NCBI GenBank assembly: GCA_050084515.1
Contig: CM114271.1
Span: 10,354,001-10,418,000, forward strand
Length of the DNA stretch: 64,000 bases
Origin: Blasia pusilla
Lineage: Eukaryota
Direction: 5' to 3'
Under the pieces are notes generated by a model, which made no database searches, was not told the origin of the DNA, and saw only the letters and a program-made list of their open reading frames with translations. This document shows, piece after piece, positions 6,801 to 64,000 of the stretch; the first letter of the stretch is position 1, and each line of letters begins with the position of its first letter. A program made the position numbers and the translations under genes.

Positions 6801-6900
6801 GCCCATCTGGCTCCTCTCCTGGAAAGGACTTACTCTATTCTAGCTATAAGTACTCTTCATCTATCTCATAACACCCCAAGTAGCACACATAGGACGAGGA

Positions 6901-7634: not shown

Positions 7635-7649
7635 ATACTCCCCCTCAAG

Positions 7650-9128: not shown

Positions 9129-9457
9129 AGCTTCAATCCATTCGACTTTACTTGCACCTTCTTCAAAATAATTGAGCTCCTATTCTTGAAGGATAATCAT
9201 CATATATGCATGATTTCTCACAAGGAAATCTTCATTTATGAATCTATGAACTGGATACGTAACTCTACTTGATCTACGAAGTTGTTGTTCAAAGATAGAT
9301 GCCTCTCACACCTGACTCGAGCTCTGACTAGTGTCAACAGAATGAATATATAATCTTCCTGTCTATGGACTCACAGATTTAATTGATGAATTTAGGACCT
9401 TTCCTAATCGTGCACTAGTACTTGGGGAAGTTGAAGACAATGTTTGTTAGTTTGCAG

Positions 9458-11729: not shown

Positions 11730-11734
11730 TAACC

Positions 11735-12980
11735 CTATTCTACTATGTGTCCTACAGAGATCAAGTTTCTTGCAATGGTAGGAACATAGAGAACATTTCC
11801 AAGAGTAGAAAGACCATCTGATGTTATTGGAACTTTACCGGTATGCGTGATATGATGTTTAGTGTCATCTCTTGTGAGCACAATTGCCGGATCTTTCACT
11901 AGCTCCAAACTACTGAACCATGTAGCTTGTGAGGTCATATGATTTGATGCACTAGAGTCAATGTACCAATGTGCTGTTGAGTCTTTCTTGACCATGGCTC
12001 CCATATAATGAGTCATGACCAAGAGATGCTCCATTTGTGAATGTTGTTGTTCTTGGTATTGGTCTTGGTGTTATTGCTCCACATAGTTTTGTTGCTGTAA
12101 GGATCTTGTTCTCATATCTGCTTTCTTCTTGAGGCAAAACTTTGCATTGTGATCCTTTATCCCACAATAATTGCAAGATCCAAGCATCCTCTACTGACCT
12201 TGATCCCAACGATTTCCACCATCACCACCTTGTGATTATGTCTGGTATTGGTTCGTAGTTGATTGACTGACATTATATTGAGTGCCTCTTCCTCCATATG
12301 CTTGATATCCACCACGACCACGGAAGCTTCTGCCACGACCCCTGCCTCTGTTTGATCTATAACTTGCAAATAGCGCACTCTCTTGCACATTGACGAGCTA
12401 CCACTGCCTACTAGGCGCATCTCTTCACTGATTAACAGTGTGACTAACTCTTGAAAGGTTGGATACTTCTCTGTCACAGAGATAGAGATCTCAAAGGACT
12501 TGTAATCCTTTGGAAGGCCTTGAAGAGTGAACAAAATTAGATCATCATCTTCCTTTGTCACTCCAATGCTACTCAACTGATCAACAATATCTCTAATACT
12601 CAAAATATAATCATTGATGTTGTGCGATGCTTTCCTCACTTTGTTCATTTATGTTTCAATTGAAGCTTTACTGACCTTTGTAGATGTGTGGAACAGCTTT
12701 TCCAATGCATCCCAAGCCTCCTTCGGAATATCAAGATCTTGAATGTGACCTATCATTGGCAAATTGATCGTTATTGAAATGTAATGGATTACGTTCCTTG
12801 CGGGTTTGTTCCAGGCGCGAACATTCAAGTCTGTTGAATCATCTTCTGGCTTGACTTCATTACCTGTGACAAGCTCCCATAGTTCTTGACCATTGAGAAA
12901 TTATTTCATGCAAAACTTCCAGACATTGTAATTCTGCTTATCTAGCTTCTTGCGTGTGATTGCTGCTGAGGAATACTCCA
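11735..12980 (-). pseudogene. Copia gag (UBN2-type) and protease, disrupted
   Basis: WYIDSSASNHMT protease motif, NVLYVP...NLISV; gag KLDKQNYNVWKF at about 12915-12950 and LQGLPKDYKSF. Confidence 0.9.
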
Positions 12981-33204: not shown

Positions 33205-34434
33205 TAGCATCGGGGAGGAGATAGAGGAGAGGAAGAGAGGAAGAGAGGAAGAGAGGAGACAGGAGACAGGAAACTACCTTTAACCCAAAGTGATACTTTT
33301 TTTTAAGAGAGTTTCCTGTGATTTGAAGAGAGTTTCCATTGGGTTGAAGAGAGGAAACTTTTTTGTGAATTTTTTTGCACTTTTGTTCTCAATGCTTAGG
33401 CACTCCCACAGTTTTTTTTTCCTCTTCTACATTTTGGCAACCCATCTGAATACGACGGGTTGCAATTTGCACAAAATTTAAAAAACTGAAAAATTTGTAG
33501 AATCATAAATGTGGAACAAATCACTTTTTCCATCCAAGGTCTCGAAAAAATCTATCATTCGCCCTGGGCTGAATAGATTTCAAGCTGAAAGTGAAGGTTC
33601 TGGCAAATGAAAGTACAATCTAAGACCTCATTTTGCATCCTCAAAGTGGTTTGTTTAAAATACTTTGCACTTCTTTGAGGGAAAAAATTGGTTGGTGGAT
33701 TCCTACTCCTACCTCCGACTCTCTTAAAACTACAAGCAACACATAGTTCATGTGCTTACAAGGGAATACCTTTTCCCACTTGTCTCTCTTTGGACAAAGT
33801 CATCACAGGAACATGTGGGAAAGCAACAGATGTGCACCACATATACCCCTGTGACACTTGAATTTACAGTGTTGTTCTTGACCCAATACATCCTTCCTAT
33901 TCCACTGCCACTCTGAACATCTTTTGTGGCAATGATTTCCATGTTTGCCTCACGAGCTGATGCAGTTCTCTTTGCTCTCTCCACCGTTGGCCTACACATT
34001 CTGTTTCTCTTCATCCCATTTCTAGACTCAAATAGAAATAGTGGATTGAGATCATCCACCTTCTTCGGGTACATGTTGACATCAATCTTGGGTTGAATAC
34101 AAAATGCAAAGGTCTCTGTAATGCGAACATGCTCCAAACTTCCTCCGTCTACGATTCTAAAACTGACACTTGTAAGATTGTCCACTTTGTCCTGAGTGCA
34201 ATTCGTACCTGCGGCAATGGGCCAAATCGTGGGGGTATTCCCTGGAGCTCCAATGGCAGCCGAATAAGACTTTCGGAAGAAATACTTAAATTGATCCTCG
34301 GTCCTCGTGAAACGATCAAAGGTTTTGAGTCCCCAAAATCCAGGCAATGGTCGTCTAGTCCTTATACAGTTGTTATTTAGGAAAGTGCCGCATGTTCTCC
34401 TAATGCCATCAGATCCTGCCCTACAAGTGGGCTT
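33205..34434 (-). mobile_element. Second, 5'-truncated copy of the MULE/SWIM element
   Basis: ORF 33748-34347 is highly similar to 16899-17700 (MKRNRMCRPTVERAKR...CCFPTCSCDDF). The subterminal sequence matches 16530-16900. Confidence 0.88.
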
Positions 34435-40360: not shown

Positions 40361-41019
40361 CATGTGAGTTTGGCGCAGCAAAGCATGGCGGAGAAGTGAG
40401 TGGGAGGTGAGGCGGGTGAATCATGGGTACTCGAGGCAGGAGAGGTGTCGAAGGTGAGAGTGGATGTGAGAGGCGTTGAAGGCACCAGAAGCCATCTTGC
40501 TGGCGGCAAGATGGCTTGCTGGCGGCATCTTGTTGGCGGCAAGATGGCGGGCGTCAGGACTTGGCAAGCTGATGTTGATCCAATTCAGCATAACTTCTAG
40601 GTCACCCATCCCAATTCTATTCCTCTAGAGTGTGCTTAACTGGAGAGTTCTTTTGCATGTTGTGTTACCAACACACCCATAAGGAAGTGATGGAATTCAC
40701 TTACCTTGCTGCTTATGGAGATGTTTGAGGGGTGATCTTTGGATGACACACATTGTGGATTAGTGCATTGCTGAGTGCACAGCACTACCGCGACTATTGT
40801 AGAGAACTTGGTGGGATGGATGTATACCACACTAGTTGGGAGTGACTTAGTGTGCGGGCTATTTGCCACGTGTTGATCTCAAGTGAGATAAGTGGGGGCG
40901 TGTCCACAGTTTGGGCATTGTCTAGTGCAGAGCTAGTGGCTCGGGAGTGAGTCATAGTAATTTGCAAGTTTCACCACTGCGCATCCACAAAGTATTGGGG
41001 AGTGTGGTAGTGGTAGAAG

Positions 41020-42090
41020 TGGTGGAGGATCTACACGGAGTCGGGCTAGGTATCGAGGGGTCCCACACAAGGAACCACCTCAGCCACGAGTTGTAGTTTC
41101 TCCGGAGGTGACATGAGCGGATTCGGAGTTACTCGAGAGGCCATAGAGTGTCGCGAGTGTTGCCACACCGTTGTTGTGGGACATGGATGATCGCAATACG
41201 TATGGGTCCACGAGGGGACCCCAACGGTTCTCAAGCATGGTGAGAACCATCCAGTTGGATGATTTTATGTATGATTTTGATAGTTGGTGCGATGCACAGA
41301 GGATGCAGAACTAGAAGAGATTCAACCCCTTTATGGCGTGGAAGGGACTTTTTCAGCATCTAGAGGGCCCTCCCATGGATGATTATCACAAGTTTTGGAT
41401 TCTTCATGATGCAAAGATCGAGGTGTGGAGACTATTTTGGTCTCTAGGATGTGTGTCCCTCACAGGGTGTGCGATGTATGATATGGCGGTTGTAGTAGCA
41501 CCTACTAACTGCACAGAGGAGACACTTGGAGGAGTTGTCGACCCGAGTCTTACGAGTGTGACCAGCCACGTTCAACCCGTTGTTTGAGTTCTTTCGAGAG
41601 TTGGGGAGGAACTATCAGGGGGTGAGGACCAACAAGCTGAAGTTGATTCATAAGTTTCAGCAGAGAGCGGGACAGAGTCTTTGAGAGGCCTATGCATGGC
41701 TCCGACGGTTGATCACAGAGACTCAAGGTGTGACGGAGAGGCAAGCGGTTCAATTCTGATATGGGATGCTAGAACTCAAGTTGCGGAAGAGAGTGCGAGA
41801 TGCAACTCTCTTACATGTTAGCTCACCTACTCTCAAGTCTGTCTTTTTGTTGGCAAAGCGTATTGAGCTCAACATACTTGAGGAGAGAATTTTGACGACA
41901 TGCGTGTCACCTTTGAGGGAGACAATACGAGTGACGGTGTCTCCATCAGTGCCACAATGCACTTCTCAAGATAGAGTCATGGGACCGAGGGCTACAAGAG
42001 GATACCGGGAGCCAGGACCAGTTCAGTCATATGCTGGGCAGTAGGGCTCAGGAAATTTTTGTTGGACATGTGAAGGATCACATTGTCAGC
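41020..42090 (+). pseudogene. gag with CCHC zinc knuckle, decayed
   Basis: FNPFMAWKGLFQHLEGPPMDDY, LRKRVRDATLLHVSSPTL, CWTCEGSH(C)QQDC at about 42060-42098. Confidence 0.85.
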
Positions 42091-42949
42091 AAGATTGTAG
42101 ATAGTAGAGTGGAGTAGGCAACACCATCAACTGTATATGAGGCGGCCCAAGGGAGGCCACCCTTACCTTAGTGTGAGCAGTGCCAGAGATATGGGCACAC
42201 ACGTGAGAGATGTTTCGAGCTCCACCTCGAGGTGCGCCTAGAGGGAGGTCGAGGTACGTGGAGGTGGCAGAGAACAAGGTGTAGGAGGTCAAGGACGTGG
42301 TGGAGGCAGGACCTCACCACTTGCCAAAGCGAATGTAGCATTTGCATGAGAGGCAGCTCTGGCGAGGATTTCTCAATTGGAGCAACGCCTTGAGGATATG
42401 ATGGCCCAACAGGCATCCACATCAAGTGCAGGGGCACGTTGACTTATGGATTGGCTCAAGCCTAGAATATGGTGGGAGATCTAGGAGGTATGGGATTTTT
42501 GTGCAACACCGCACAGGTGGATGCAGATACAGTGGTTACGAGAGGCGCGGTGAGAGCTTCTGAGCCACGAGGATCTGATGTGGAGTTGGATTCCTAGAGG
42601 GGAATGGCTGGCAGGTAGGCTAGACTTCCCCAATCTTTCACATTGTCGGAGGCTCTTTGGACCCCATCGATGGTCCCTAGACGGCCTTTGCGGAGTTTTG
42701 TTGTCATAGATGCGGATGCAGTTAGAGGAGCGGGTGAGGCGAGTACCTCTACCAGGCCTATGCAACATTCGACATGGCCTAGTACTGGCACGTTACGAGA
42801 GATGGCGACAGCTTTGTGTAGCATCCCACTATTTACGGCCTGAGATTTTTTGATATGTGGAGGTTGACCAATTGATGTTTTCCGGTTGGCGGCGACGCTC
42901 TGTGAGAGTGATGAGTTTGGTTCTTCTATTGCTCTTTGGACCCCATCGA

Positions 42950-43230
42950 TGGGATTGCGGAAGTGTGAGATCACTCCATGTCCATTCCAAATTCATACTT
43001 CACTGGGAGGCACATACCCGACACAGTTCATGACTTGCAATGAGATTGGAGTGAGGATTCAACCCAATCATCCTATGGATAGTGCGATGGTATGGACAAG
43101 AGGGGTTGTGACACCGGCCAAGTCTTATGATGTTTTGGTAGGGGCTACCTTATTTTATCCTCTAGGGTTCACACTTGAATTTTGGGAGGAGACATTCTCC
43201 TATCGACCAGGTTGGCAGTCGGGTGAGGGA
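42950..43230 (+). pseudogene. C-terminal half of a retropepsin-type protease; catalytic DSG/DTG not seen
   Basis: VVTPAKSYDVLVGATLFYPLGFTLEFWEE resembles the 'YDvLlG..L..lg..lD' retropepsin C-terminal motif. It sits directly after gag. Confidence 0.6.
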
Positions 43231-43599
43231 CAAGCCAGTCAGCTACCCGTGCAGTATGCACGGAGACTTGATGGTTTACTCCGAGGGTCAACAACAGTTA
43301 TTGTGGCACATTATGTTTTTGGCATGGAGATTTATAAGAGGGAAATGGTGATGCAAAGGATATTCCTATAGAGGATAGTCCTGAGGAGTGGCATGCGATG
43401 ACGAGCGTGGCTACATTTGATGGCGATACTTCTTCAGCTTTGTGGGGTATGAGAATCGATTTGCAGAGGAGAGCAGAAGAGCTTGTAAGGTAGGCATGGA
43501 GCCAAGCCTATGCTCTAGAGTTAGACGGGACATAGTTACCACGTGCTCTTGGAGTGGAGACGTTGACACCCTTGGACATCACACCGATTGTGTGGCAGT

Positions 43600-44530
43600 A
43601 TCCCAAGGAGGGTGTACATATACTAGATCTCTTTGGAGGGATTAGTACAGCGTTAGTTGTAGTGTTGCAAGCCAGAGTATGAGTACAGCAGTACTTGTAT
43701 ATTTGGAGGGATGAGACTGCACACAGAGTCTCATTACGTCATGTGTCGAGACTAGTCCAGCAATATCCTCAGTTATTGCTAGTGTTTGCAGTTAGGGGAT
43801 ATCAGCATGTATTGGAGGCTGACATTTCGTTGTTGGGGGTGCCAGATCTGCATAGGGTTGGTCTGATACACTTGGTGGTTGCAGGGTGGCCATGTTAGGG
43901 TCATTCTTTGGCGGGTCGTGGACTTGGTTGCAAGACCCGAGGTTGGCCATGTTTTGGCAGATGTTGCGAATTCTTTGACACTTGCAGACTACCCAACGAT
44001 GTTCTCCAACTTGCATTTTGGAGAACGTCCCACTGTTAGGTGACACTTGAGCCCGAGTGATGGCGAGTGTAGATAAGGTGCGGTTGTGGATAGGACCGGC
44101 AGTGATGTTGGATGTAGCAAGTGTTGGATCGTGCGCACACCGTCCATGATTGTGGTGGACTAACCTTTTACCATCTGAGTTATTGAGATGGGCTTATGAT
44201 GGAGTCGAGAGACCATCACTACTTATAGTGGATGCAATCTTGGATCCATGGTGGTGATCTCAGGTTATTACTCGTGATGATGTACCACCGTTAGCAGTCG
44301 CCAATTGTGTGGGCCAGCAGAGGGCAACATTGCCTACATTGGTGAGTTTCCCGTCATCTCATGCTTTTCATCGGGGAGGACCAGGCATGATATGGGATGA
44401 CCACGCAGGTACACTGGTGGAGCCCAACGCCGATGAGCGAGAATGAGCTATGGGGTTCTCTACAAGTATGACGGCGGTGCCTATGGTGGCAGAGGCATCC
44501 CGCAGACATGTATTGGGTCATGCTCTGGAC
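43600..44530 (+). pseudogene. DNMT3-like DNA (cytosine-5) methyltransferase catalytic domain, with 7 stops and one frameshift
   Basis: Motif I ILDLFGGIST (43620-43649). Motif IV LVVAGWPC*GHSLAG (about 43872-43916). Motif VI ILENV (44015-44029). Motif VIII AHRP*LWWTNL (44135-44167). Motifs IX-X ERE*AMGF..SMTAV....SRRHVLGHALD (about 44435-44530). Confidence 0.92.
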
Positions 44531-45159
44531 TATCTTACTCGGGTGTTCAATCTTGGTTTGGCTGAGTAGCAACAGATGCGAGAGGTGTTTATGACATTAC
44601 GTCCACTTTGCAATGCAATGACTACCGGGATGGGTGAGACACTCCCTGGGGGCGCGATGGTGATGGAGAGGCATCCACGGACTTCATGGGACATGTCAAA
44701 AGAGCATAGAGAGATGAGAGTTCATTTCGCTGATGTAGGACATAGTGGAGTACCTAGAGAGTTGGTGTCTGATTTGGGAGCGCATGTTGCTGCTCCAGAG
44801 GTTGCTAGTTAGTAACCACCACCCTCCTCTTCTCCAAAGGTCACGAGAGAGATTGCAGCGCGGTGGCATGGTGAGAGTGATGAGGAGATAGTTTCGGGTT
44901 GGCACATATCTGCCTATTTGTGTCTGTTAGCTATGTTAGGTCAGTAGGAGGCATCCACCCCAGGAGGGAGGTTAGATGGTGAGTCCTCACATCTAGATGC
45001 TAGTGAGGAGTTGATAGGAACTGGAGACATCCACGATGATGAGATGGTCTTGGAGTACCTGCGCATTGGTGTCTTAGTAGCATGGTGGGTGCTAGAGAGC
45101 GGGAGGAGGATCAAGTGGGAGGGGAAGCATGTGCTTTGAGTTTGGGAGGATGGACGAGT

Positions 45160-46260
45160 GCGGATGGTGCTGCATCCTTTGCAGCGAGCACGAGTTGTGT
45201 GACAAGCTCACGAGGAGTTAGGGCATTTCAAGTCAAGCGTACGTATAGCTTGATTCAGATCAAGTATTGGTGGCATGGTATATATACTGATGTTCAGCAG
45301 TTTGTAGCCAGATGCATTGTACGTGATAGGGTACGGGCATCGTTCAATGCTCCGATACCACACTTGCATCCTTTACCGACCATGGGATTAGGATATCCCT
45401 GGAGTTTAGACTTTGCAGGGCCTTTACCATTGACAGGATGCCATAGTTGGTATGTGTTGGTCATGGTGGAGCAATTCTCCAAGTGGATGAGTGAGTTGGT
45501 AGCATGTCCGAATAGGTCGAGTGAGGGAGCCGCTTATGCATTTCTTGATAGAGTGCTTAGTCATTTTGGCATACCAGCAAAGTTGTTGACAGACGAGGAA
45601 ACAGATTTTAGGCGTGACTTTAAGGCTTTGTGTGATCAGGCACGGATAGATCATTGTACAACTTCTCAAGATCATCTAGAGGCAGATGGTTATGCAAAGA
45701 GAGTTGTGCAGACGAGGAAGAGAGGATTGCGCAAGTATGGACTACAGAGAGGACACTTGGGAGATTGGGACCTATAGTTGTCGTGGTTGGAAATGGGTTA
45801 CCGCTTCAGTCGGCAGGCATCCTTGGCATCATTTTCATCGTATTTCTTGCTCTAAGGGAGAGAGCCAGAGTTATTGTCATCGATTCGACAAGATGTGGTT
45901 GAGGTACTTGACCTTGAAAATCCACACGTATGGATGCAAGCGTGTTCTAAGTGGGCTAAGCTCTTTTGGAGAGTCATGCCTATGGTGTTTGAGAACCTGG
46001 CTATCGCTCAACATCGCGATACTCTAAGATACACAACTACGCATGGAGGAGGCTATCGACCAGGGATTCGGTGATTCCATCATGGCAATTATGTCTACCT
46101 ATAGCAGACACCGCCAATGACCTTGGACGTGATGGCAGGATGTACTATTCTACGAGTGCGAGAGATTTTACCTTCAGGAGTCCTTGTTTTAGAGGGTCGT
46201 TATGATACCGTTTGAAAAGATCATCTGCGTAACTGTGCACCATGTCATGGTCTGAACGTG
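45160..46260 (+). pseudogene. Gypsy integrase, decayed
   Basis: AHEELGHF..KRTY...YWW...C; WSLDFAGPLP; LTD; EADGYAKRVVQT. Confidence 0.92.
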
Positions 46261-46306
46261 GATGGGGATTGATCTGAGCTTGACAGTTATTCCTGTAGGC
46301 TTGAGA

Positions 46307-46444
46307 TGCATGTTGTGTGGGTCTGCCAGAGGCATAGCCACGATGCTAGTTTGTGATGGGTGTTCTCGAGGATGGCATATGTCGTGTTTGACGCCGCCTC
46401 TTGACTTGGTTCCTCAAGGACATTGGCTTTGTCCCATATGTTCA
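46307..46444 (+). CDS. PHD finger (C4HC3) at the integrase C-terminus
   Basis: CMLCGSARGIATMLVCDGCSRGWHMSCLTPPLDLVPQGHWLCPIC has all eight zinc ligands plus the conserved W. Confidence 0.95.
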
Positions 46445-46625
46445 TAGGTGTGATAGGTACATATAAGATGACTCTTGATGTTATGGATTGCAAGAAGGTG
46501 ACTAACAATGGAATGACATAGCACCCGACCTCTTGATCTTAGCACCGAAAAGGTGCATAGCATTTATACTTGTTTTGTTGGCTATCTGGAGTTAGAGGGA
46601 CCTAACCACCAACTAGGGGGGCGAC

Positions 46626-46741
46626 TGAGGTTGTCCGATTGTTCATGTGTAGAGATATTAGGATTCATATCTAGATGGATCTTAGACATGTGTGTGCATG
46701 ATAACCGAAGTACCTTGGCAGCGATGTGTATTCGCACGACA
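46626..46741 (+). repeat. Short 3' LTR remnant, homologous to about 47987-48100
   Basis: Follows the PPT. GGTTGTCC.AT.GTTCATGTGTAGAGAT...GCACGACA is shared with the copy ending at 48100. Confidence 0.7.
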
Positions 46742-46743
46742 AC

Positions 46744-47404
46744 TGTTATGGTAGAAGAGGCGTAGGGTGAGATAGTATCAAGGTTGTCGTCTTCATACAC
46801 ATCGCTACAAAACCCACATTGCTGGTCACATCTACATACCACACAACAGCGATCTTCCCCAACATACGGGTATATCCACACATAAATGAAACATACTCAT
46901 GCATATACACTGGGATCCCACAACAAAATCAACGGCTCACCTGGCCTAAAACTCCACTCATGAATCTACATCGGCATATCAAACCACATCCACCCTCTTT
47001 TATGAGGGAATCCAGACGCTAGCACCCACCCTAACTCATACAGACCCACACATGTCTATGCAAGAGAGGCACTCCTAAGGCTCAACATGAGAAAGATGGC
47101 TTGAGAAAGCCATCTCTCTCACTTTTATATGCTTGGGAAGAACCGAAAAGCTCTTCCCCCAAAAAAAGCCCTACCAACGGTAACCTACGTGCATAGGTTA
47201 TCGGGTGACCGTTGACTCGGTCAATGAGTCACCTGACGGACTAAAACCAAAATATGGAAATTTCCATAAACAACATTCCTGACGCAATAGACCTATTTCC
47301 AACCTCATCCGACATCTTGGGACAAAGTTACACCCAAACAATGCGTTGACTCTCTATGTCGTTGACGCGATAGAACTCTACCTACGTCGAAATAAGATAG
47401 TACA
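46744..47404. repeat. Probable solo LTR (about 660 bp), same family as 1-98; no TSD seen
   Basis: TG...CA ends, with the right end homologous to window positions 1-98. Confidence 0.65.
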
Positions 47405-48100
47405 AGGCCTTAGAGGGGTCTTGTACTTCCCTATTTTGAGAGGTCACATGTGACCTGCTCTTAGGAGATGACCTACGAGTGTAGGTCCCCCTTCCCTTTA
47501 TGAGGAGTGGAAACCTTGGAAAGGTTGACCTTCCCAGCCATGGATGACTCCACTTGGACCTATAGGGTCATGGGTTAGTTGGTAGTTGGTCTCATGAGGG
47601 GACCACATGTGTAGTTCTTAGGGAGCTAGTATGGATGTACTATAGGTGGGTAGTGACCTACTAGGAGGGAGGTGACCTTTGTGTATAGGTCACCCATGGA
47701 GGTGCCCAGGGGGGTATACTTCGGCTGAGGCTCATTTGGGGCTCATCTCCTTAGGATTGCAGACCCTTGTTGGGATTCGTGATACAGTACGGCTTGCATG
47801 TATTGAGCCTGGATTCTCTCTTGAATAATGGGCTAGGAGCGATCAATAAGTAAGATCACACATTTTGGGAATCCTTGTGTATACTTTCTCTTGCTGTTAC
47901 ACCAGGGTGTATCTGAATCATGAGTATGGTTGTTTGGATGAAGCACGGTTGATTGCAGATTTCATCAGAGTTTACATGGCATATTGGGGTTGTCCAATCG
48001 TTCATGTGTAGAGATGTTAGGATTCATAGCTAGATGGATCTTAGACATGTGTGTGCATGACAGCCGATGTATGTTGGCATCGATGTATATTTGCACGACA
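47405..48100 (+). repeat. LTR fragment of the DNMT-element family, abutting a LINE endonuclease
   Basis: The last ~115 bp match 46626-46741 and end in ...GCACGACA. Confidence 0.6.
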
Positions 48101-48476
48101 TTGGCGACCTTGATCCACATGAAGTATTTCTTATCATCAATGTCGGCTATGGAGATAAAAGGTTGTAACCATGGTGCTACCAAGCATGTCAAGCCACCGT
48201 GTCCTTTTTTGTTGCTATTTGTGAGTGAGTTGTGGATAGCTAAGACCTACAAGTCCTCTGTATTAGGAATGCGGTTGGAATCATGTTCATGTGTTTCAAC
48301 AAAAAAGATAAGGTCCAATTTTGTTTCCAAATATGTAATGCCATTACCTCTGGACTAGAATGGTCCTCCATAATTGTGAATAACTGCGTGAATGGATGGG
48401 TTGATAATATCCTTCCTATCCACCATTCCTTATAGAGAGGTCTTGTCAAGGAGGTTTGTCACCTCCAAGGCCTGGT

Positions 48477-49508
48477 TGTCGTGCGCCTACTCTCCTTGAA
48501 CGTTAATCTTGTTTGTTGCGGAAGCGTGCGTTCAGTAGGTCACGCTCTCAACGCTGATCTGCATCCAAACACGCACTTCGGTTAGTCGGGTCTTGGATCA
48601 ATCAGCGGGATTACTTTCCGAGTTCTCGTCTCGGACTCTCTCTTCAAGCTCAACCTTCCTAGTTTTGCGGTTTCCAACACGGGCAAGTCTCGAAAGACTT
48701 GGGATAGACTTTCAGTCGGTTCGGGAACTCAAACGGCGTTTAGCGCCTAGCGGTTCCAACTGTCCGATGAACACCCAATGAGTTCCTCACCAAGACTCGC
48801 ACGAAGTGAATCTCGGGTTGGAATCCAAGTGTGGCGTACAAAGTCCACTCCCTTGGATCAGGTTTGGGTTTCGGGTTTCCGCGCCAAACTCCCGTTTCAT
48901 CCCGTGCCTCTGAAACGCCGTTTGGCACCCAAAGTGGGGTTTCGTTTCCCGAGACATCTCAGAGAAGGTACTCCCCTTACTAGTACTTCTGGGGATCTCC
49001 GGGGGCCCCCTAAATTTAGGGAAAGACACCCGGGCCTCTCCAATTGGCCCTCAACCCGATTGCTCTCTGAATCGTTTTTGGCCAATATCTCAGCCTGTAC
49101 TTATGCGTTTGCTGAGATCTTTGGTGCGTTGGAAGCATCTTGAGATCATCTTTCCAACGCGCCCTTACTTGTCCCAAACGCATCTTGGAGCTCAACGTTA
49201 TGGTCCTAAACACAGTCAGATTTTCCCAAACGCTAGTCATGTTCCAAACTGGTTCTCACCTCTTTGCCAACCAACCTCCAAGACTCAACTCATCTCAAGT
49301 CTCGGCTCGCGTTTGGGTCTAGGTTTCCTGGTCGCGACCACTAACGCATGAAATGCACAACTCTGTTCCGCGTTTCGTCTCTTAGACTTTTCCAAGAGAC
49401 TCTTCGAAACGCCTCTCCAAAGCGCAAACCTCGCGGCGTGAGTTCCTTTGAGTTCTGATGTTTCGTTTGGCGCGTATTTGGTGTTGTTTGGTTATGAGGG
49501 TCGCGACA
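48477..49508 (-). repeat. Solo LTR (1032 bp), TSD CTGGT
   Basis: TGTCG...CGACA termini, with CTGGT at 48472-48476 and 49509-49513. Homologous to 14997-15995. Confidence 0.93.
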
Positions 49509-50612
49509 CTGGTTCTCAGTTGTAGAATTGCTAATTCCCTAGTTGGAATCCAAGTTTTTGCTCACTGCCCCTCTTGGTGCATAGTTGTGTCTTCTAGGTA
49601 CTCATGTCGTGGCCTTTCCTTCCCTGAGTTCATTCCAAAGACCGTTGTTGCGGGCAGCTAGAACCTTCTCTCTTTCAATAGCGAGTGCTGCTCTTTGCTT
49701 GGTGGTCAGATCTAGGAAGATACGGATAGTGGATCCTTTAAGGATTTCTTTAATGCAAAGGATGGCCAACCTCATTTCCATCGCTGGTCCCCGTTGTGAG
49801 GGATCAAATTATACCAACATTGGTGCTGGTCAGTCCCCTATTCCTTTCCCAAGTCTGATCCCTGTGAAGGTGACTGCTGGTGTGACCCCCTAGAGTTGTG
49901 AAGACCTTCTCTTGCCAAAGTGAATTCCAGTTTTCTTCCTTGGTAAAGTGCAGTCCCATGATAACTAAATTGAGTTCCTTGGTTTTCCTATCCTGGAATT
50001 CTAGGACCTTATCTGATTCTTCTTTTGTTACCTCTTTGGCTACCTGTGTTGCAACCTTAGTGATTTGTGTTGTGGACGTATGCTTGCCCAATATTTATGT
50101 CCGGGTTCTAACAGGATTTGCAAGGTTGTTCTTAGTTAAACGATACTCTTGCATTACCTTCCCAAGCTGAGTGTTATCCTATTTGAAACACGCAACTAAG
50201 TCCTTCTTCAATTGTAGGTTCTCGGCCCTCAAAGTGACCAGCTCTAATTCCAGAGTTGTCTTTTGAGCCGTCCATTCGAGGAGGTTTGATTCCTTGCTGG
50301 ACATCCATCTACCCTGCTCTTCTTTTGCTGCTTCCATCATTGTATTCCATGCCAGCATCTAGCACGCCTGAAAGCTTTCCCATTTTCCTTCTAGTTCAGA
50401 GAACCGATTGGTGATGGATGCCACTTCCAGATATGGTATAACCTCTGTTGAATGTGTGAGAGCTGCGTGTAGTCATTCCCAGTCACACTGCCTCATTTTT
50501 TCCTAACATAGTGGCGAGAGTTTGATGTGATCAATTTGCGTGAACCATTTGATCTCACTGATCGTCCATTCTCCCTACTCTTCGTCTACTTGTGGGAACG
50601 ATCCTTGATACT

Positions 50613-52621: not shown

Positions 52622-55600
52622 TCAATAAAGTAAAAAACGACAGTGCGGCCCATACAACGTGTTTGTACGGAGCTTCCAAGTGTCAACCAAGAAACTCTTC
52701 ACCACACCATCTACTTTACGTGATTGGGATCCCCAATAGACATTACTTACCAGTGCAACAACTTTGGGCAATGAATCAAGGCTACTGAATGTGTTGAACA
52801 GTTCTGGAGCTACCAACTTAGCAATATCAGCATATGCTCTTGCTCTGTGTGTTGTGAATTTTGCGCAGGAGACCAAGTAATGACTAGAGGTTTCATCCCC
52901 ATCGTCACACAAGGCGCAAGAGTTTAGTTGTGTTCCCATCCTACTTTTCTTATGGTTCAAGGGGATTGCTCTTGTTCTGAACTTGAACTTGAGCCGGGTT
53001 TCCAAGCAAGGGGTTCCCCACAAATAGTTCTTCACTTCTGCCTTCTCGAGATATACCGTCAAAAGAGAGAGCTCAGAAATTTTCATGGCTTCCTCCATGT
53101 TGTTATGCTATGAGTGTTTGCCCACTGCTTTGGTTATGGTATCCACGAATGCTTTCTCATCTTGCTCCCACAATTCAGGCCCTGTTGGGAGCTTGGATGC
53201 TTGCACAATCTCTTGAACCTTTTTCGTCCAAGATTTGGCCTGCTTTACGGGTCTTCTTTGGGTCCAAGTTTTCCCATTACCTCTTTAGGATAGCGATGGG
53301 AGTCCATTGTCTCCAACTGTCTCCACCATTTCAACTTGGTGATGTCATGTCTATCCTCCAAAGGATCCACACCTAGTTCTCACATCAACTCGGGTTGTTC
53401 GTGATGGAGTTGACATCATACCCCGAAATGCCTTCACCTGCACAGCTTCAAGCCTATCCCTTTGTTTGATGTTGGCATCCCACATTCTTGCCCCATATTC
53501 CAACAAAGGACGAATGGTATGAAAAATGATAGAGCGCTTTACTTCTGATGTGATATCTCGGTAGTGTAGGAATCTGGACAGATTGTTCACCTTCTTGTGG
53601 CCTTTCTCAGTAGTCTTCTTAATGTGCGCATCCCACATGCAATCTTCCGAGAATTCAATGCCCTGATAGGTGTATGTAGCCCTATAGGGGATCTCTTGTT
53701 TGCTCCAATACCACTGTCGGTCTTGGTCCTCCTCCTTGCCATTGAAAATCATCACACTGCACTTCAGTACATTTTCCTCCATGCCCCACATGTCATACCA
53801 GATTTTCGTTAGGGAGATCATCTCTTGGAGTTTCTCTCCTATTTCCTCGAGGCCACCAAAGTCATCAGCAAACATGAGAGCAACAAAAAAGTTGTTGCTC
53901 ACCCGTATGCCTAGTCCACTATCCTCCATTTCTTCCAATAGGGAATTCATGAAAATGTTGAGGAGGGTGGGGGAGAGCAGGCATCCTTGAGCCACTCCTT
54001 GCTTGATGTCAAATGTCCCACTCTTTTGGCCATTCACCAAAACTCTACTCCTTGTGTTTTGGTACATCTTCTCCACCACCCTCCACATTTTCCCTCTCAG
54101 CATTGCCTTCCACAAGCTATAAGATAGCCCGTCACGCCATACAGTGTCACATGCCTTCTTGAGATCCAAGAAGAAGCAATAGGTGGGTTTTCCCTCTTTT
54201 TTCCTACCTTGGATAATCTAACTGAAGGTGAAGATGTGATCCACGCATCCTCGGGCTTGCCAAAAGCTAGCCTGCCATTCCTTGATGACAGAATTATCCT
54301 CCAGGTACACAGAGATCCTATTGTTGAGTATACGGCAGAGGAGCTTCCCGACTACACTCAGCAATGTAATACCCCTGTAGTTTCCAGGGTCTTCTCGCTC
54401 ACCCTTCTTGAAGAGGTTCACGATGACTCCCACCCGCCATCTTTGTGGGATTACTTATGCCCGCCAGACCAGGTTGAAAAGACTCACTAGAGAACGAGCC
54501 ATAGAAGCATCGCCATACTTCAACAACTCATTCACAAGCTCATCACCACCGCCTGCTTTTGTGGTTCACAAGTTCTTTGATCGTTGCTCCCACCAAAGCC
54601 CTGGAGAACCAATTGTTATATGGGTTGCCAAACTCAACCTCATCATCTACCTTCTCCCGTTGTATCTTAACAAAATCCTCCACCACCCTCTCGAAGTTCT
54701 GCTCTTCAAGGGAGCGGGCTTCCTGCCTAACTCCTTTAATGGTCTTCCAACACATGTCAGATCTGTTGAGCCGTGGTCATCATTCCACTGTCTTTTCTCT
54801 TCAAGGCCTTTACGTCATTTTTGTCCCTAGCTTTGCTCAATTTTTGCACTCCCATCTAGAACTTATTGTTGATTCTCAGTGAAATTCTCATTGATGGATA
54901 AGTATGTCGCTTGGTTCAACTTCTTCTTGTGCATGCATACAAGAAGAGGGGTTTCCTTGCATAGGGCCACATACTCTGTCCACAAGGATGCATCATCCCT
55001 AGCTTTGGCACTTGTTACATACGCTTTCCTTCGTTTGGCAATGGCTGCCTTGAGTTCTTAGGACCATCATTTGACGACTCTGCCGCATATTATCTATTTC
55101 CTACCATCAGCAATCTCGGCGGCATCTATCACTCCACGCTCCCACCATGCCAACACCATGTCCACAGTTATTCTTGTGAACCCAAAGGTCTTGATGGTAG
55201 ATTCAATGAAAATGTCAAATGCCAAGAGATTTTCTTCCAGCTTGCTAATGTACACCTTCTTGTTGCCCTCATCTTGGAAGTCCTCTATCCTCCATTTCTT
55301 GATCACTCTCTTCACTGGTTTGGTCGAGCATTTTAGCCTTTGCTACAACTCTGTCCAAACGAATGAATGATTTGATCTTCCAATGTCTGTCGCATCCACT
55401 GTGATCTTCCCACTACGTGTAGAGTTCCTCATCCACAGCTATGAATTCCACAATGGGGCTTTCATTCTCCTTGAAGTTGACCCTAGTCCACGCCGGGGAG
55501 CCCACCTTATGCCTATCCTTCAGTGCCATCAGTTGAAGTTCCCTCAACATCGTGATCAGCCGTGTGCCATTGCCATTCACTCTCACATCTCCAAACATCC

Positions 55601-56168
55601 CGATCTCCGCTTGGGGATTAGTGCCTTGCTCCACCCAACTGTTGAAGTCTCCCAGCAAGACTACGTTCCCTTTTGTCTGGAACCCAAGGCAATCAATTTT
55701 CACACTATCAAACGATGCCTCTATTACAGGAGCAGATTCACTGTTTGTAGGCATGTAAATACACCCAATATACATATCCGGCAAGTTGCACTCTGCTTGA
55801 ACTTTGACCCATATGCTGTGTTCATACTCGAGCCCTGTGTTGATGATCTCACACCTATCCACCATGAAGTCTCTGATGAAGAACCCGACACCCTTCATAC
55901 CTCTATTGTTGTCCTCCTGGATGCTGCACATCTTTCCAAACCATGCATAGTGTGGTACATTGGGTATCTCCATTAACTTGGTTTCCCAAGTTTCCTGACC
56001 ACCGCATATATGCATTTGATTTTTCAGCAAAGCTTTAGCAACCTCCAGCTGTTTCATTGCATGGGTCAGTCCACATAAGTTCCAGGTACCCAAACGGAGA
56101 CCTCTCACTAAGTGGGTTGGGGGTCGGCGGGCACGCTTTTGGCATAGGTGTGGCTGCTCTTGCAACAT
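52622..56168 (-). mobile_element. Non-LTR retrotransposon ORF2 (APE endonuclease, RT, C-terminal CCHC), decayed
   Basis: GTWNLCGL, QETW, LLGDFNS; KGEREDPGNYRGITLLS, DLKKACDTVWR, GVAQGCLLSP, FADD; CALC...ETSSHYLVSC. Confidence 0.92.
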
Positions 56169-56207
56169 GGAACCTCTTCATGTGCAAGCTCTTCATCGTT
56201 GGTTCCT

Positions 56208-56601: not shown

Positions 56602-57878
56602 TGTCGTGTCGAGAATCTTTCTTCGAGCAAGGGCGGGCCTTCTAGCTGCGGTAGATGCGGTCGATGCAAGGTGAACTCTCTAATAAGTTCTCCTTTTTCA
56701 ATACAAAATTATGATGTACACTCTCCATTCTCTCACGACAAGTATCACGAATGGAAGTGTCGAGGCGATCACTTCTTCGTAACATCGGACCCCGAAATTC
56801 CTAACTATAAAATCCCTATAAACTATTTTACGTTTGTACACGAGGAAGATAGCACCACTAGTGTTAAACCCTACTTGAGCAGGCCTATTGACATCCATGG
56901 ATCGCTATATAAGGACATACAAAGTACAATCCCATGTCCTTCCATATGTGACGATAGGAAGAATCACCGGAGTTGGAGATTGCATGACCTGGTTCATGAA
57001 CGCCTCCCCAAAGTGATAAACTAAATAGCGAGTGAACCAGTGCCTATCTACAAAGAGTACCTTGACATGGTAAGGATTGAGGAAAGGAAAGTCGGGCACA
57101 GCTCGTGCTCCACCCCTATCCATGCTTGACAGACATTCTCTACTCTCCTCAAGAATGGGTTTTGGCGGAGTTATTCTCCCAAGAGGGGTAATCCACTCTC
57201 ATTGGGAAAGTAACAAGCCAAAACATCCGCTATTTTAGTATGACTAAACTCTTCTACGGTGACAAACCTCTCATCCCCCCCACACACACGCACCACACTC
57301 TAGAAACTTCTCGAAGAATAGACCATGATCAAGTTACTCTCCCAAGAGGGGTGATCCACTCTCATTGGAAGAGCAAGCAATCCCAAAGCCATACACTCAA
57401 GAGAGACACGAGAGACTCAAGATGTGGAATAGAAGGTAATGAACCCTTGAAGGTCCCTCCTCTTTATATACTCACAAGGGATCCACAAGAGTACGAAATA
57501 GAGCTTATCTTATCTTGTGCCACATGGCTTCCTCTCAAGGCTTAGCCAATCACATTTTGACACAAGTAGATTTCCTCTTATCTCTTCCAAAATATCCTCT
57601 TTTACCCACATGATATTTTCCAAATTACCCCAACTAACCTAGCCACCAACCAAGACTACTTTTGCTTTTCATTAAAGCAACTACTTTACTTTTATAAAGT
57701 CCATCTTTTATGTATTACCTCCTTTTCCTAAAGTTGGGCCCGCATAAAAGAAGCACCATAAAGAGGTTTAAACATAAGAATCTCCTTTTTCTAAGCCAAT
57801 TTACTTAATACTAATGAAACTCTATCTAACACTTAATGACGAAGGAGTTTACACACTGATTGATTTTACTATACGACA
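56602..57878 (-). repeat. 3' LTR (1277 bp)
   Basis: TGTCGT...ACGACA termini. The first 183 bp are identical to 63818-64000. Confidence 0.93.
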
Positions 57879-63817: not shown

Positions 63818-64000
63818 TGTCGTGTCGAGAATCTTTCTTCGAGCAAGGGCGGGCCTTCTAGCTGCGGTAGATGCGGTCGATGCAAGGTGAACTCTCTAAT
63901 AAGTTCTCCTTTTTCAATACAAAATTATGATGTACACTCTCCATTCTCTCACGACAAGTATCACGAATGGAAGTGTCGAGGCGATCACTTCTTCGTAACA
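63818..64000 (-). repeat. 5' LTR (partial)
   Basis: Identical to 56602-56784 and adjacent to the PBS. Confidence 0.95.

What the first reader, a model, noticed from the sequence alone, without database searches (positions are those of the whole stretch)
43600..44530. DNMT3-like cytosine methyltransferase embedded in a Gypsy polyprotein between protease and integrase
Seen: translating through 7 stops and one frameshift (near 43930) gives C5-MTase motifs in canonical order: I (LDLFGGI), IV (AGWPC*GHS.AG), VI (ILENV), VIII (AHRP*LWWTNL) and IX-X (ERE*AMGF...RRHVLG). The ORF track shows only a 67-aa piece, so standard annotation would miss it. Established: motifs VIII and IX-X match the DNMT3 pattern (AHRARYFWGNL; ERxFGFP...RQxLLG). 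From memory, retrotransposon capture of DNMTs has been reported in dinoflagellates and a charophyte alga, but it is not a standard land-plant Gypsy feature. Inference: this family encoded its own de novo methyltransferase, perhaps to methylate its cDNA or insertion site.
Basis: partly seen in the sequence, partly recalled or inferred. Interest (0 to 1): 0.92.

Follow-up and report, generated by a model that had tools for sequence, protein, structure and literature searches.

The report
Dead retrotransposon copy carrying DNMT3-like methyltransferase
This is a broken, old copy of a plant jumping gene whose family carries its own DNA-methylating enzyme, a kind already described in a green alga and here seen with close relatives in liverworts and a moss.

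Summary
Read through 7 stops and a 1-base loss at 43928, window 43590-44575 (+) encodes a C5 cytosine methyltransferase domain with motifs I, IV, VI, VIII, IX and X in canonical order. Pfam PF00145 does not hit the window's own pieces. The domain does match 700 protein clusters (best E 2e-71). Many are Ty3/Gypsy polyproteins that score PF00145 above cutoff. A profile of the family hits DNMT3A/B/C first in the PDB (E 2e-22). A modelled relative folds like DNMT3A.

The nearest relatives (54-62% identity) are Calypogeia, Marchantia and Sphagnum proteins. A Klebsormidium nitens protein that fits the published KnitGypsy-Dnmt3 is a homologue with the same domain order.

The native order is gag-PR-DNMT, a stop, then RT-RNaseH-INT-PHD. 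This copy lost about 480 residues (RT and RNase H) at about 44852, so DNMT sits next to integrase only by deletion. It also has at least 8 frame changes and no detectable LTRs, so it is a pseudogene.

Verdict: a new, dead member of the known streptophyte Gypsy-DNMT3 kind. The searched papers place that kind only in an alga; here its closest relatives are bryophyte proteins. What the enzyme does for the element is inferred, not shown.

The parts
41186..42100 (+). gag-like N-terminal part of ORF1 (decayed, several frames)
   Evidence: blastx colinear with Marchantia P0157 residues 5-329 (41201-41464 at 57% identity; 41568-42098 at 42%) and with Sphagnum P0159. No Pfam hit in the window itself.
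42172..42234 (+). CCHC zinc-knuckle remnant of gag (CEQCQRYGHTRERC)
   Evidence: Seen in the ORF at 42172-42393. Aligns to P0157 349-369 at 57%. Relatives P0040 and P0048 score Pfam zf-CCHC. No Pfam hit in the window.
42946..43260 (+). aspartic-protease-like region (PR)
   Evidence: blastx to the PR regions of P0048 (957-1060, E 4.5e-13), P0007 (1043-1143) and P0066 (E 4.7e-21). Those regions score gag-asp_proteas or Asp_protease_2 in relatives. No Pfam hit for the window ORF 42868-43371.
43590..43928 (+). DNMT domain, N-terminal half (motifs I and IV), frame 43482+3k; stops at 43680 and 43896
   Evidence: The stop at 43896 replaces the Q of the catalytic PCQ motif (Q in 114 of 129 relatives).
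43928..44575 (+). DNMT domain, C-terminal half (motifs VI, VIII, IX, X), frame 43481+3k; one base lost at 43928/9; stops at 43976, 44048, 44147, 44255, 44444, 44567
   Evidence: 62% identity to Calypogeia P0156 over 320 aligned residues.
44576..44815 (+). C-terminal tail of ORF1, ending in TAG TAA at 44810-44815
   Evidence: Aligns to the tails of Calypogeia P0156 (to 44725) and Marchantia P0157 (to 44701). Both proteins end about 30 residues further on. Stops read.
44816..44852 (+). remnant of the start of ORF2 (pol), in the same frame as ORF1, up to the deletion junction
   Evidence: 31 contigs of run X3 follow the window to 44852 and then diverge with a consensus (agreement 0.87). By my hand translation, with the last window base, it reads TWEPVIGPRL. 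Sphagnum P0159 reads ETWEPLIGPKL before its RT. The ORF2-type proteins P0205, P0206, P0209 and P0210 carry WEP near their N-termini.
44853..45225 (+). RNase H-to-integrase linker of pol; RT and RNase H (about 480 residues) are missing before it
   Evidence: blastx: window 44825-45229 aligns to residues about 494-634 of ORF2-type proteins, whose RNase H ends at 473-479. No RVT or RNase H Pfam hit in 41001-50002 (+).
45226..46266 (+). integrase (H2C2 zinc finger about 45229-45321, rve core about 45400-45666, C-terminal region), with stops
   Evidence: Pfam Integrase_H2C2 E 1.1e-7 and rve E 3.2e-9 on ORF 45043-45777. 59-65% identity to RT-RH-INT-PHD proteins P0204-P0208 and 48% to Klebsormidium P0200.
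46307..46447 (+). PHD finger at the C-terminus of pol, followed by the stop codon
   Evidence: Pfam PHD E 4.3e-11. The nearest solved sequences are CHD4, KDM5B, KDM5A, PHF12 and DPF3 PHD fingers. The PHD sits in the same place in 63 of 203 relatives.

Best explanation
Window 41186-46447 (+) is an old, dead copy of a Ty3/Gypsy retrotransposon family of the green lineage that encodes its own DNMT3-type cytosine-5 DNA methyltransferase.

In the lineage closest to this copy the element has two reading frames:
- ORF1 is gag (CCHC knuckle), aspartic protease and DNMT.
- ORF2 is RT, RNase H, integrase and a C-terminal PHD finger.

This copy lost RT and RNase H in a single deletion of about 1.4-1.5 kb at about 44852. 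It then accumulated stops, mostly where relatives have arginine, so most likely CGA to TGA, together with frame changes. It can neither move nor make a methyltransferase.

Inferred working of intact members (not shown):
- The DNMT is made as the tail of the gag-PR polyprotein and released by the protease, so it travels with the particle.
- It methylates the newly made cDNA or the new insertion de novo.
- The integrase-attached PHD finger tethers integration to chromatin with unmodified H3 tails, much as chromodomains do in chromoviruses.

The confidence given is for the identity and anatomy. The inferred mechanism alone I put at about 0.3-0.4.
For: Shown:
- Motifs and breaks as described.
- Homology to 700 clusters, best E 2.1e-71.
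- PF00145 above its 22-bit cutoff in 9 of 15 relatives scanned: P0007, P0030, P0040, P0048, P0156, P0157, P0158, P0160 and P0010.
- The family profile A1 hits DNMT3A/B/C first in the PDB, E 2.3e-22 to 1.6e-16. Next come a 'DNA methyltransferase' chain (4onj, recalled as tobacco DRM) at 4e-12 and M.HhaI at 1e-9. No DNMT1 or chromomethylase is among the 58 hits.
- The AF2 model of relative P0012 has pLDDT 93.2. Its best Foldseek match is DNMT3A, E 1.3e-20, TM 0.71/0.80.
- The structure neighbours in the ESM Atlas are animal DNMT3A clusters, TM 0.73.
- The window is colinear with Marchantia P0157 from 41201 to 44701, and with ORF2-type proteins from about 44830 to 46444.
- In the trees the window joins Calypogeia and Marchantia at 100*.
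- Klebsormidium P0200 reads PR-DNMT-RT-RH-INT. It matches the profile at E 6.9e-84 and the window halves at 5.9e-34 (DNMT) and 4.5e-87 (INT).
- 38 columns are >=90% conserved in 129 relatives, including the C of PCQ, the EN of ENV and AHR.R.
- Other copies exist. 1,919 to 12,840 short contigs per run lie on 41000-47500 in 4 runs, covering all 30 bins. The listed pieces over the DNMT differ at about 12-15% of their letters.
- CpG o/e is 0.54-0.56 and TpG+CpA o/e is 1.3-1.4.

Inferred: packaging of the DNMT with gag, self-methylation, and the PHD reading of H3K4me0. The last rests on my recall of what CHD4, KDM5A/B, DPF3, PHF21A and AIRE PHD fingers bind.
Against: - The window's own pieces get no PF00145 hit at E<=10. 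Piece B has no PDB sequence hit at all.
- No LTR pair, PBS or target-site duplication was found, so the element's ends are undefined.
- Only one copy lies in the window and no genome is held. I could not show an intact copy in the same host, nor whether the RT-RH deletion is private to this copy.
- The two adjacent in-frame stops between ORF1 and ORF2 could be decay rather than the native arrangement. Some relatives are single fused ORFs (P0187, P0040, P0200).
- The only published activity test of the closest known relative (KnitGypsy-Dnmt3 domain in yeast) gave no methylation, called inconclusive by the authors.
- No tree with reference DNMT1, CMT, DRM or DNMT5 sequences was built here.
Confidence: 0.87

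Rival explanations
1. The RT/RNase H-less form is not a private accident. It would be a non-autonomous subfamily (gag-PR-DNMT-INT-PHD) that spreads using RT supplied in trans by full-length relatives.
For: ORF1 and the remaining pol stay in one frame across the junction. The family is multi-copy in four runs. Of the 203 fetched relatives, 21 read DNMT-INT or DNMT-INT-PHD with nothing upstream, though most are probably truncated type-B proteins.
Against: 31 contigs of run X3 continue past 44852 into the start of the RT region. No listed contig bridges the junction as the window has it (table 8; the list is truncated). All close ORF2-type relatives carry RT and RNase H.
Confidence: 0.15
2. The locus is a chance juxtaposition of two truncated elements: a gag-PR-DNMT element cut at about 44852, next to the 3' half of a different INT-PHD Gypsy element.
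For: No LTRs bound the unit. Summed contig depth over 45340-47500 is several-fold higher than over gag-PR-DNMT in all four runs, although the tool warns that such depth cannot rank parts of a gene.
Against: The reading frame is continuous across the junction. The right side starts just after RNase H of the same kind of pol. The INT is closest to bryophyte and streptophyte proteins of the DNMT-bearing lineage: Calypogeia P0229 70%, Sphagnum P0159 64% (the same gene model as its DNMT), Klebsormidium P0200 48%. Full-length P0187 shows PR-DNMT-RT-RH-INT-PHD in one protein.
Confidence: 0.07
3. The domain is a one-off fragment of a host DNMT3 gene captured by, or lying beside, this single copy.
For: No PF00145 hit on the window sequence. 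Only one copy in the window.
Against: The domain is colinear with gag-PR upstream and pol downstream in relatives from Marchantia, Calypogeia, Sphagnum, Klebsormidium, Closterium and Scenedesmus, and in many unnamed contigs. Other diverged copies of the DNMT part exist in four sequencing runs. No intron-like interruptions are seen.
Confidence: 0.01
4. In intact family members the domain does not methylate DNA. It might act on RNA, or serve as a non-catalytic DNA or chromatin binder or a decoy for host silencing factors.
For: The KnitGypsy-Dnmt3 domain gave no DNA methylation in yeast. The stretch between motifs VIII and IX is longer than in DNMT3A: 57 profile positions against 36 residues.
Against: The catalytic motifs (C of PCQ, EN of ENV, AHR.R) are >=90% conserved in 129 relatives. 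The closest sequences and folds are DNA-methylating DNMT3A/B/C; DNMT2 scores only E 4e-6. SymbioDIRS-Dnmt3 domains, a separate capture, do methylate CG in yeast. Human DNMT3B also failed in that same assay.
Confidence: 0.15

Closest known systems
KnitGypsy-Dnmt3 of Klebsormidium nitens (de Mendoza et al. 2018, PMC5890265; passages and section 9 read)
   Same: A non-rearranged Dnmt3-type domain inside the polyprotein of a Ty3/Gypsy element of a streptophyte. A K. nitens protein (P0200, KFL_009030040) is a homologue (profile E 6.9e-84; window DNMT half E 5.9e-34 and INT E 4.5e-87). It has the order PR-DNMT-RT-RH-INT, which is also the native order inferred here.
   Different: The window copy belongs to a separate, well-supported clade with liverwort and moss proteins. 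Its DNMT is 36% identical to P0200 over its C-terminal half. Its lineage has a PHD finger after the integrase and, apparently, a stop between DNMT and RT. P0200 shows no PHD, though it is a partial protein. I could not confirm from the paper that P0200 is one of their copies, because supplements are closed. The DIRS-like repeat structure they report could not be examined here.
Chlorophyte-type Gypsy-DNMT elements (e.g. 'pol' of Scenedesmus sp., P0075/P0155)
   Same: Homologous DNMT, integrase and C-terminal PHD finger.
   Different: The domain order is RT-RH-DNMT-INT-PHD. The 20 such rows sampled form one side of a 99* branch, apart from the PR-DNMT-RT type. I found no paper describing them.
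SymbioDIRS-Dnmt3 and SymbioLINE-Dnmt of Symbiodinium (PMC5890265)
   Same: Retrotransposons that carry a cytosine DNMT in their coding region. SymbioDIRS-Dnmt3 is also Dnmt3-type and methylates CG de novo in yeast.
   Different: A different element class (DIRS with tyrosine recombinase; LINE), a different host lineage, and an independent capture according to the authors.
Host DNMT3A/3B/3C of animals (solved structures)
   Same: The closest solved sequences and folds. The motif order is canonical and colinear with DNMT3A residues 13-209 and 245-288 of chain 2qrv_A.
   Different: 22-24% identity. No PWWP or ADD domains were found in the window's + frames or in the 15 relatives scanned. The domain is embedded in a retrotransposon polyprotein.
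Chromoviruses (Gypsy elements with an integrase-linked chromodomain) and other PHD-bearing transposons
   Same: A histone-reader module fused to the C-terminus of the integrase. PHD fingers in retrotransposons are called widespread in PMC6673714 and a common accessory domain in Chlamydomonas TEs in PMC8557442.
   Different: One relative (P0164) is listed with both PF00385 and PF00628.
EpiLTRs (bioRxiv 10.64898/2026.05.21.726589; passages read)
   Same: LTR elements that assemble several epigenetic modules in one unit.
   Different: Those carry a DAM adenine methyltransferase, a DNMT4-like DNMT and a chromodomain. The authors state that this capture is distinct from the streptophyte Gypsy-DNMT3.

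Membership tests
C5 cytosine methyltransferase (Pfam PF00145 DNA_methylase) | Conserved motifs I (FxGxG), IV (PCQ), VI (ENV), VIII (RxR), IX and X in order | tested here: met
   all are present in order in the window read-through. The Q of PCQ and the second R of motif VIII are replaced by stops. Motif names and patterns are recalled, not taken from a tool.
C5 cytosine methyltransferase (Pfam PF00145 DNA_methylase) | PF00145 hit above the gathering score on the sequence itself | tested here: not met
   No hit at E<=10 for 43590-43949 or 43931-44560, nor in the three full + frames of 41001-50002. In intact relatives the Pfam match mostly covers profile positions about 38-157. In the window that stretch is split by the stop at 43896 and the frameshift at 43928. 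Short relatives that hold only motifs VI-X also get no hit (P0001-P0003).
C5 cytosine methyltransferase (Pfam PF00145 DNA_methylase) | PF00145 above the gathering score in demonstrable homologues | tested here: met
   9 of 15 relatives scanned pass (27.1-48.9 bits against a cutoff of 22). P0055 scores 20.1, below the cutoff. P0001, P0002, P0003, P0129 and P0159 get none.
C5 cytosine methyltransferase (Pfam PF00145 DNA_methylase) | Methyltransferase fold | tested here: met
   For relative P0012 (36-41% identical to the window domain): AF2 pLDDT 93.2 and pTM 0.91. Foldseek gives 316 PDB matches at E<=0.001, best DNMT3A at 1.3e-20. The window copy itself was not folded.
DNMT3 class | Closest to DNMT3 among characterised DNMT classes | tested here: met
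   Profile A1 against the PDB: the first 29 of 58 distinct sequences are DNMT3A/B/C (E 2.3e-22 to 1.6e-16). Next come 4onj at 4.2e-12, M.HhaI at about 1e-9, DRM2 at about 1e-8 and DNMT2 at about 4e-6. No DNMT1 or CMT chain appears. Foldseek and the Atlas agree.
DNMT3 class | Non-permuted motif order (unlike plant DRM) | tested here: met
   Colinear with DNMT3A. The DRM chains match the N-terminal profile positions 46-178 with their C-terminal residues about 226-352, as expected for a permuted enzyme.
DNMT3 class | Placement inside the DNMT3 clade in a tree with DNMT1, CMT, DRM, DNMT2, DNMT5 and DNMT6 references | not tested
   No reference sequences could be fetched by name. The claim leans on PMC5890265, which calls the K. 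nitens TE copies 'Dnmt3-related' and 'a more divergent clade'.
DNMT3 class | Host-type companion reader domains (PWWP and ADD in animals; a DUF in land plants, per PMC12344493) | tested here: not met
   No such Pfam hits in the window's + frames or in the 15 relatives scanned. It is therefore a DNMT3-type catalytic domain, not a host DNMT3 orthologue.
Ty3/Gypsy LTR retrotransposon | gag with CCHC knuckle and an aspartic protease | tested here: inconclusive
   Both are recognisable only by alignment to relatives and by eye (CEQCQRYGHTRERC). Pfam gives no hit in the window, but does in relatives.
Ty3/Gypsy LTR retrotransposon | RT and RNase H followed by integrase (Gypsy order) | tested here: not met
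   The window has no RT or RNase H because they are deleted. Relatives have RT-RH-INT in Gypsy order. Integrase H2C2 and rve are present in the window.
Ty3/Gypsy LTR retrotransposon | Flanking LTRs, PBS/PPT, target-site duplication | tested here: not met
   No direct repeat pair flanks 41186-46447. The recalled tRNA-iMet PBS motif gives 8 matches against 5.19 expected, none upstream of gag.
Streptophyte Gypsy-DNMT3 (KnitGypsy-Dnmt3 kind) | Dnmt3-type domain inside a Gypsy polyprotein, homologous to the K. nitens element, with the same domain order | tested here: met
   (P0200). The order PR-DNMT-RT-RH-INT is inferred for the window's lineage.
Streptophyte Gypsy-DNMT3 (KnitGypsy-Dnmt3 kind) | DIRS-like arrangement of terminal repeats (legend of Fig. 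4c, PMC5890265) | not testable with these tools
   No terminal repeats are detectable in this decayed copy. Contigs of relatives could not be fetched.

The most novel reading that the evidence does not exclude
The Gypsy-DNMT3 capture is not a Klebsormidium peculiarity. It is an old, green-lineage-wide clade with two architectures: PR-DNMT-RT-RH-INT-PHD in streptophytes and RT-RH-DNMT-INT-PHD in chlorophytes. The clade has persisted into land plants (liverworts, a moss and the host of this window). In the land-plant lineage the DNMT3-type enzyme sits at the end of the gag-protease ORF. It would therefore be made and packaged at gag-like levels and would methylate the element's own cDNA or insertion. 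Meanwhile an integrase-linked PHD finger that reads unmodified H3 would steer integration into silent chromatin, making a self-silencing 'stealth' toolkit.
Probability: 0.3. Interest if true: 0.7.

Novelty: new member of a known kind. Interest (0 to 1): 0.45.

Why it matters
DNA methylation is the host's main weapon against transposons, so a transposon family that carries its own de novo methyltransferase is a paradox worth explaining. In the papers I could search, the only described plant-lineage case is from the alga Klebsormidium nitens, and its function is still unknown.

This window is itself a dead copy. Together with its named relatives in Marchantia, Calypogeia, Sphagnum, Closterium and Scenedesmus, it indicates that the family is much wider and older than 'the K. 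nitens lineage'. The family reaches land plants, including a genetically tractable model (Marchantia). It pairs the DNMT with a PHD reader on the integrase.

That makes the open question of what a transposon gains from methylating DNA testable in a model bryophyte. It also warns annotators that some 'DNMT' genes in bryophyte gene sets are transposon ORFs.

Tried and rejected
- Pfam on the window's own DNMT pieces and on three full + frames gave no PF00145.
- phmmer of piece B against PDB sequences gave 0 hits at E<=10. Piece A gave only non-significant DNMT3A hits.
- tblastn of the element's parts against the window found no second copy. There was only a weak hit of the integrase to another element at 58562-59008 (-).
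- LTR search: the repeat finder and a sensitive self-blastn of 30000-56000 gave no pair flanking the element.
- PBS motif (recalled): no better than chance.
- The search for related loci on metagenome contigs failed three times because the machine gave no answer. ORF1/ORF2 junctions and the ends of intact relatives could therefore not be read at the DNA level.
- The look-up of sequencing runs listed no RNA holder. No listed contig bridges the 44852 junction as the window has it (the list is truncated).
- Literature search was badly framed (min_terms 1) and returned irrelevant papers.
- Gene-identifier search found 0 papers.
- PMC11982613, PMC8616336 and PMC12344493 (passages only) do not describe bryophyte TE-DNMTs.
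- PMC9487137 was seen only in a listing.
- Supplements of PMC5890265, which may list the K. nitens copy identifiers and the DNMT tree, were not seen.
- Rejected: bridging the frameshift with a custom four-letter code. It was not needed, so the two frames were searched separately.
Full report
**1. The observation**

- In the frame of codons 43482+3k: VWQYPKEGVHILDLFGGIST... (motif I) and ...LVVAGWPC*GHSLAGRGLG (motif IV).
- In the frame 43481+3k: LQDPR..., ILENV (VI), GSCAHRP*LWWTNL (VIII), PNADERE*AMGF (IX) and RRHVLGHALD (X).
- Seven stops lie within 43600-44530: 43680, 43896, 43976, 44048, 44147, 44255 and 44444. An eighth lies at 44567.
- The frames join by re-reading base 43928, which means one base was lost. 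Relatives read GRGKGLQDPR where the window reads GRGLG|LQDPR.

At five or six of the seven stops the codon is TGA where relatives have arginine. One is TAG at the glutamine of the catalytic PCQ motif. Together with CpG o/e of 0.54-0.56 and a TpG+CpA excess, this is the usual decay signature of methylated DNA.

**2. Is it a methyltransferase?**

The direct tests fail. Pfam gives no PF00145 hit on either piece at E<=10, nor on the three long frames. phmmer against PDB sequences gives nothing for the C-terminal piece. For the N-terminal piece it gives six DNMT3A chains at E about 1.3-1.5, which is not significant.

The indirect tests are decisive.
- The read-through of 43931-44812 matches 700 clusters at E<=1e-3 in 1.84 billion representatives, with 370 at <=1e-10 and a best E of 2.1e-71.
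- Of 15 relatives scanned, 9 score PF00145 above its cutoff.
- In those relatives the Pfam match mostly covers only profile positions about 38-157. In the window this stretch is cut by a stop and the frameshift, which explains the miss.
- Short intact relatives that hold only motifs VI-X also get no Pfam hit.
- Across 129 relatives with a nearly full domain, 38 columns are >=90% conserved. They include the catalytic Cys, EN of ENV and AHR.R. The window keeps 35 of them.

**3. Which class?**

- A profile of 21 family members (A1) hits DNMT3A/B/C as the first 29 of 58 PDB sequences (E 2.3e-22 to 1.6e-16). It aligns colinearly with the catalytic domain.
- The next hits are a 'DNA methyltransferase' chain (4onj, recalled as tobacco DRM) at 4e-12, matched in permuted position, and M.HhaI at 1e-9. 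No DNMT1 or chromomethylase chain appears.
- An AlphaFold2 model of relative P0012 (pLDDT 93.2, pTM 0.91) finds only DNMT3A/B/C in all 37 listed Foldseek rows. The best is E 1.3e-20 with TM 0.71/0.80.
- The ESM Atlas structure neighbours of the Calypogeia domain are animal DNMT3A clusters at TM 0.73.
- I built no tree with reference DNMT classes.
- No PWWP or ADD domain accompanies the domain. It is therefore a DNMT3-type catalytic domain, not a host DNMT3 orthologue.

**4. What it sits in**

Upstream, the window is colinear in seven blastx segments, with six frame changes, with Marchantia protein P0157 (Mp_8g17980, 1248 aa) from 41201 to 44701. That protein covers gag, a CCHC knuckle, an aspartic-protease region and the DNMT.

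The Marchantia and Calypogeia proteins end about 30 residues beyond their alignments. That is where the window has TAG TAA at 44810-44815.

Downstream, the window aligns from about 44830 to 46444 with about 1040-residue proteins that read RT-RNaseH-INT-PHD (59-65% identical in the integrase). The alignment covers only their residues from about 494 on, which lie just after RNase H.

No RT or RNase H is detectable in 41001-50002.

Contigs from a public run follow the window to 44852 and then diverge (31 contigs, agreement 0.87). By my hand translation the divergent consensus reads TWEPVIGPRL. Sphagnum P0159 reads ETWEPLIGPKL just before its RT, and four of the ORF2-type proteins carry WEP near their N-termini.

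So this copy lost about 480 residues (RT and RNase H) in one deletion at about 44852. 'DNMT between protease and integrase' is a consequence of that deletion.

The integrase scores Pfam H2C2 and rve, and the C-terminal PHD finger scores E 4.3e-11.

No LTR pair, PBS or target-site duplication could be found. The window holds only this one copy.

**5. The family**

By local phmmer with domain segments of two relatives, all 203 fetched proteins carry the DNMT.
- 68 have RT and/or RNase H just upstream of the DNMT (type B). Of these, 43 read RT-RH-DNMT-INT-PHD in full.
- 30 have PR upstream and/or RT downstream (type A). One of them, P0187, reads PR-DNMT-RT-RH-INT-PHD in full.
- 21 read DNMT-INT(-PHD) with nothing upstream.
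- 84 hold the DNMT alone.

The set is biased by how it was fetched and includes some members of the same clusters.

Named members:
- Calypogeia fissa, Marchantia polymorpha and Sphagnum fallax.
- Klebsormidium nitens KFL_009030040, Closterium sp. and Scenedesmus sp. 'pol'.

Trees of the DNMT domain:
- The window joins Calypogeia and Marchantia at 100*. This holds in FastTree with 145 rows, where Sphagnum joins too, and in IQ-TREE quick with 49 rows.
- The 20 type-B rows sampled form one side of a 99* branch.
- In one search, seven rows labelled A had no flanking domain and were labelled from the earlier tree. Only the statement about the B rows is independent of that labelling.
- No outgroup was available, so no rooting is claimed.

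Four coded public runs (two coded organisms, three studies) hold thousands of short contigs 85-99% like the element. They cover all 30 bins, including several listed pieces over the DNMT. The family is therefore multi-copy there and the DNMT is not private to this locus.

**6. How it most likely works**

Shown:
- Intact relatives keep the catalytic motifs.
- The DNMT is part of the element's coding region.
- In the nearest lineage the DNMT ends the gag-protease ORF.
- The integrase carries a PHD finger whose closest solved relatives are CHD4, KDM5B, KDM5A, PHF12, DPF3, ATXR5, PHF21A, AIRE and UHRF1 fingers.

Inferred:
- The DNMT is released by the protease and travels with the particle or pre-integration complex.
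- It methylates the new cDNA or insertion de novo, as de Mendoza et al. proposed for DIRS elements.
- The PHD finger reads unmodified H3 tails (my recall of what those fingers bind). It would tether integration to silent chromatin, as chromodomains do.

The window copy does none of this.

The only published activity test of the nearest known relative (the KnitGypsy-Dnmt3 domain in yeast) detected no methylation. The authors call this inconclusive, since human DNMT3B failed too.

**7. Comparison with what is known, and novelty**

PMC5890265 (abstract, section 9 and passages read) describes Dnmt3 inside the Pol of a Gypsy element of K. nitens. It calls this an independent acquisition 'in the K. 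nitens lineage'. Its main text mentions no bryophyte or chlorophyte copies.

Two later texts refer to it as the streptophyte case (passages read).

Searches for the Marchantia gene identifiers, for DNMT3+Gypsy+bryophyte+retrotransposon, for retrotransposon+DNMT3+Marchantia+Gypsy and for names of the kind found no paper that reports such elements in land plants. Subscription journals and supplements were not searchable.

The finding is therefore a new, dead member of a known kind. The wider points may be new: bryophyte and chlorophyte members, two architectures, the PHD partner and the placement in ORF1. They rest on database proteins rather than on this window.

**8. Verdict**

- Identity as a decayed Gypsy-DNMT3 copy: about 0.85-0.9.
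- Mechanism of the family: inferred, about 0.3-0.4.
- Interest: 0.45.

Noticed in passing
window 44810-44852; proteins P0156, P0157, P0166-P0180, P0204-P0210: The nearest lineage seems to have two ORFs. About 1250-1440-residue gag-PR-DNMT proteins end shortly after the DNMT. About 1040-residue RT-RH-INT-PHD proteins start just before a WEP motif. In the window the two parts are in the same frame, separated by TAG TAA and 12 codons. This would fit stop-codon read-through, but could also be decay. Other relatives (P0187, P0040, P0200) are single fused ORFs.
   Followed up: partly
proteins P0030, P0055, P0075 and others: A second architecture, RT-RH-DNMT-INT-PHD, dominates the fetched relatives (43 full-length of 203). 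It includes Scenedesmus 'pol' proteins of 3225 and 4177 residues. Its DNMT domains form one well-supported group, apart from the PR-DNMT-RT type.
   Followed up: partly
window 46425-47500, especially 46579 and 46624: In all four runs many contigs begin or stop matching at 46579 and 46624, each with a shared loose-end consensus. Summed contig depth downstream of the PHD finger is very high. A 116-nt repeat at 46626-46741 recurs at 47985-48100 (89%). The 3' side of the element is broken up by another abundant repeat.
   Followed up: no
window 56602-56784 and 63818-64000; ORFs on the minus strand between them: A 183-nt direct repeat, 100% identical and cut by the window's end, brackets minus-strand ORFs. 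These show Integrase_H2C2 and RNase H (58916-59692) and DUF4100 (61475-62716). It looks like a young, separate LTR element.
   Followed up: partly
window 16674-17713 and 33416-34431: Four colinear direct-repeat blocks (79-88% identical) lie about 16.7 kb apart. They may be the LTRs of a very large old element, or a segmental duplication.
   Followed up: no
window 53351-54217 (-) and 55413-56177 (-): ORFs with RVT_1 (E 1.3e-17) and with Exo_endo_phos (E 1.4e-4, below the Pfam cutoff). They look like a LINE-type element on the minus strand, just downstream of the finding.
   Followed up: no
window 5024-5674 (-); 18926-19123: A Gypsy-type RNase H ORF (E 3.3e-24) and a 99-nt tandem duplication (82% identical). 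The whole window looks like nested transposon debris, with CpG o/e of 0.54.
   Followed up: no
protein P0164: One type-B relative is listed with both a chromodomain (PF00385) and a PHD finger (PF00628) besides the DNMT. That would be three chromatin-related modules in one polyprotein.
   Followed up: no
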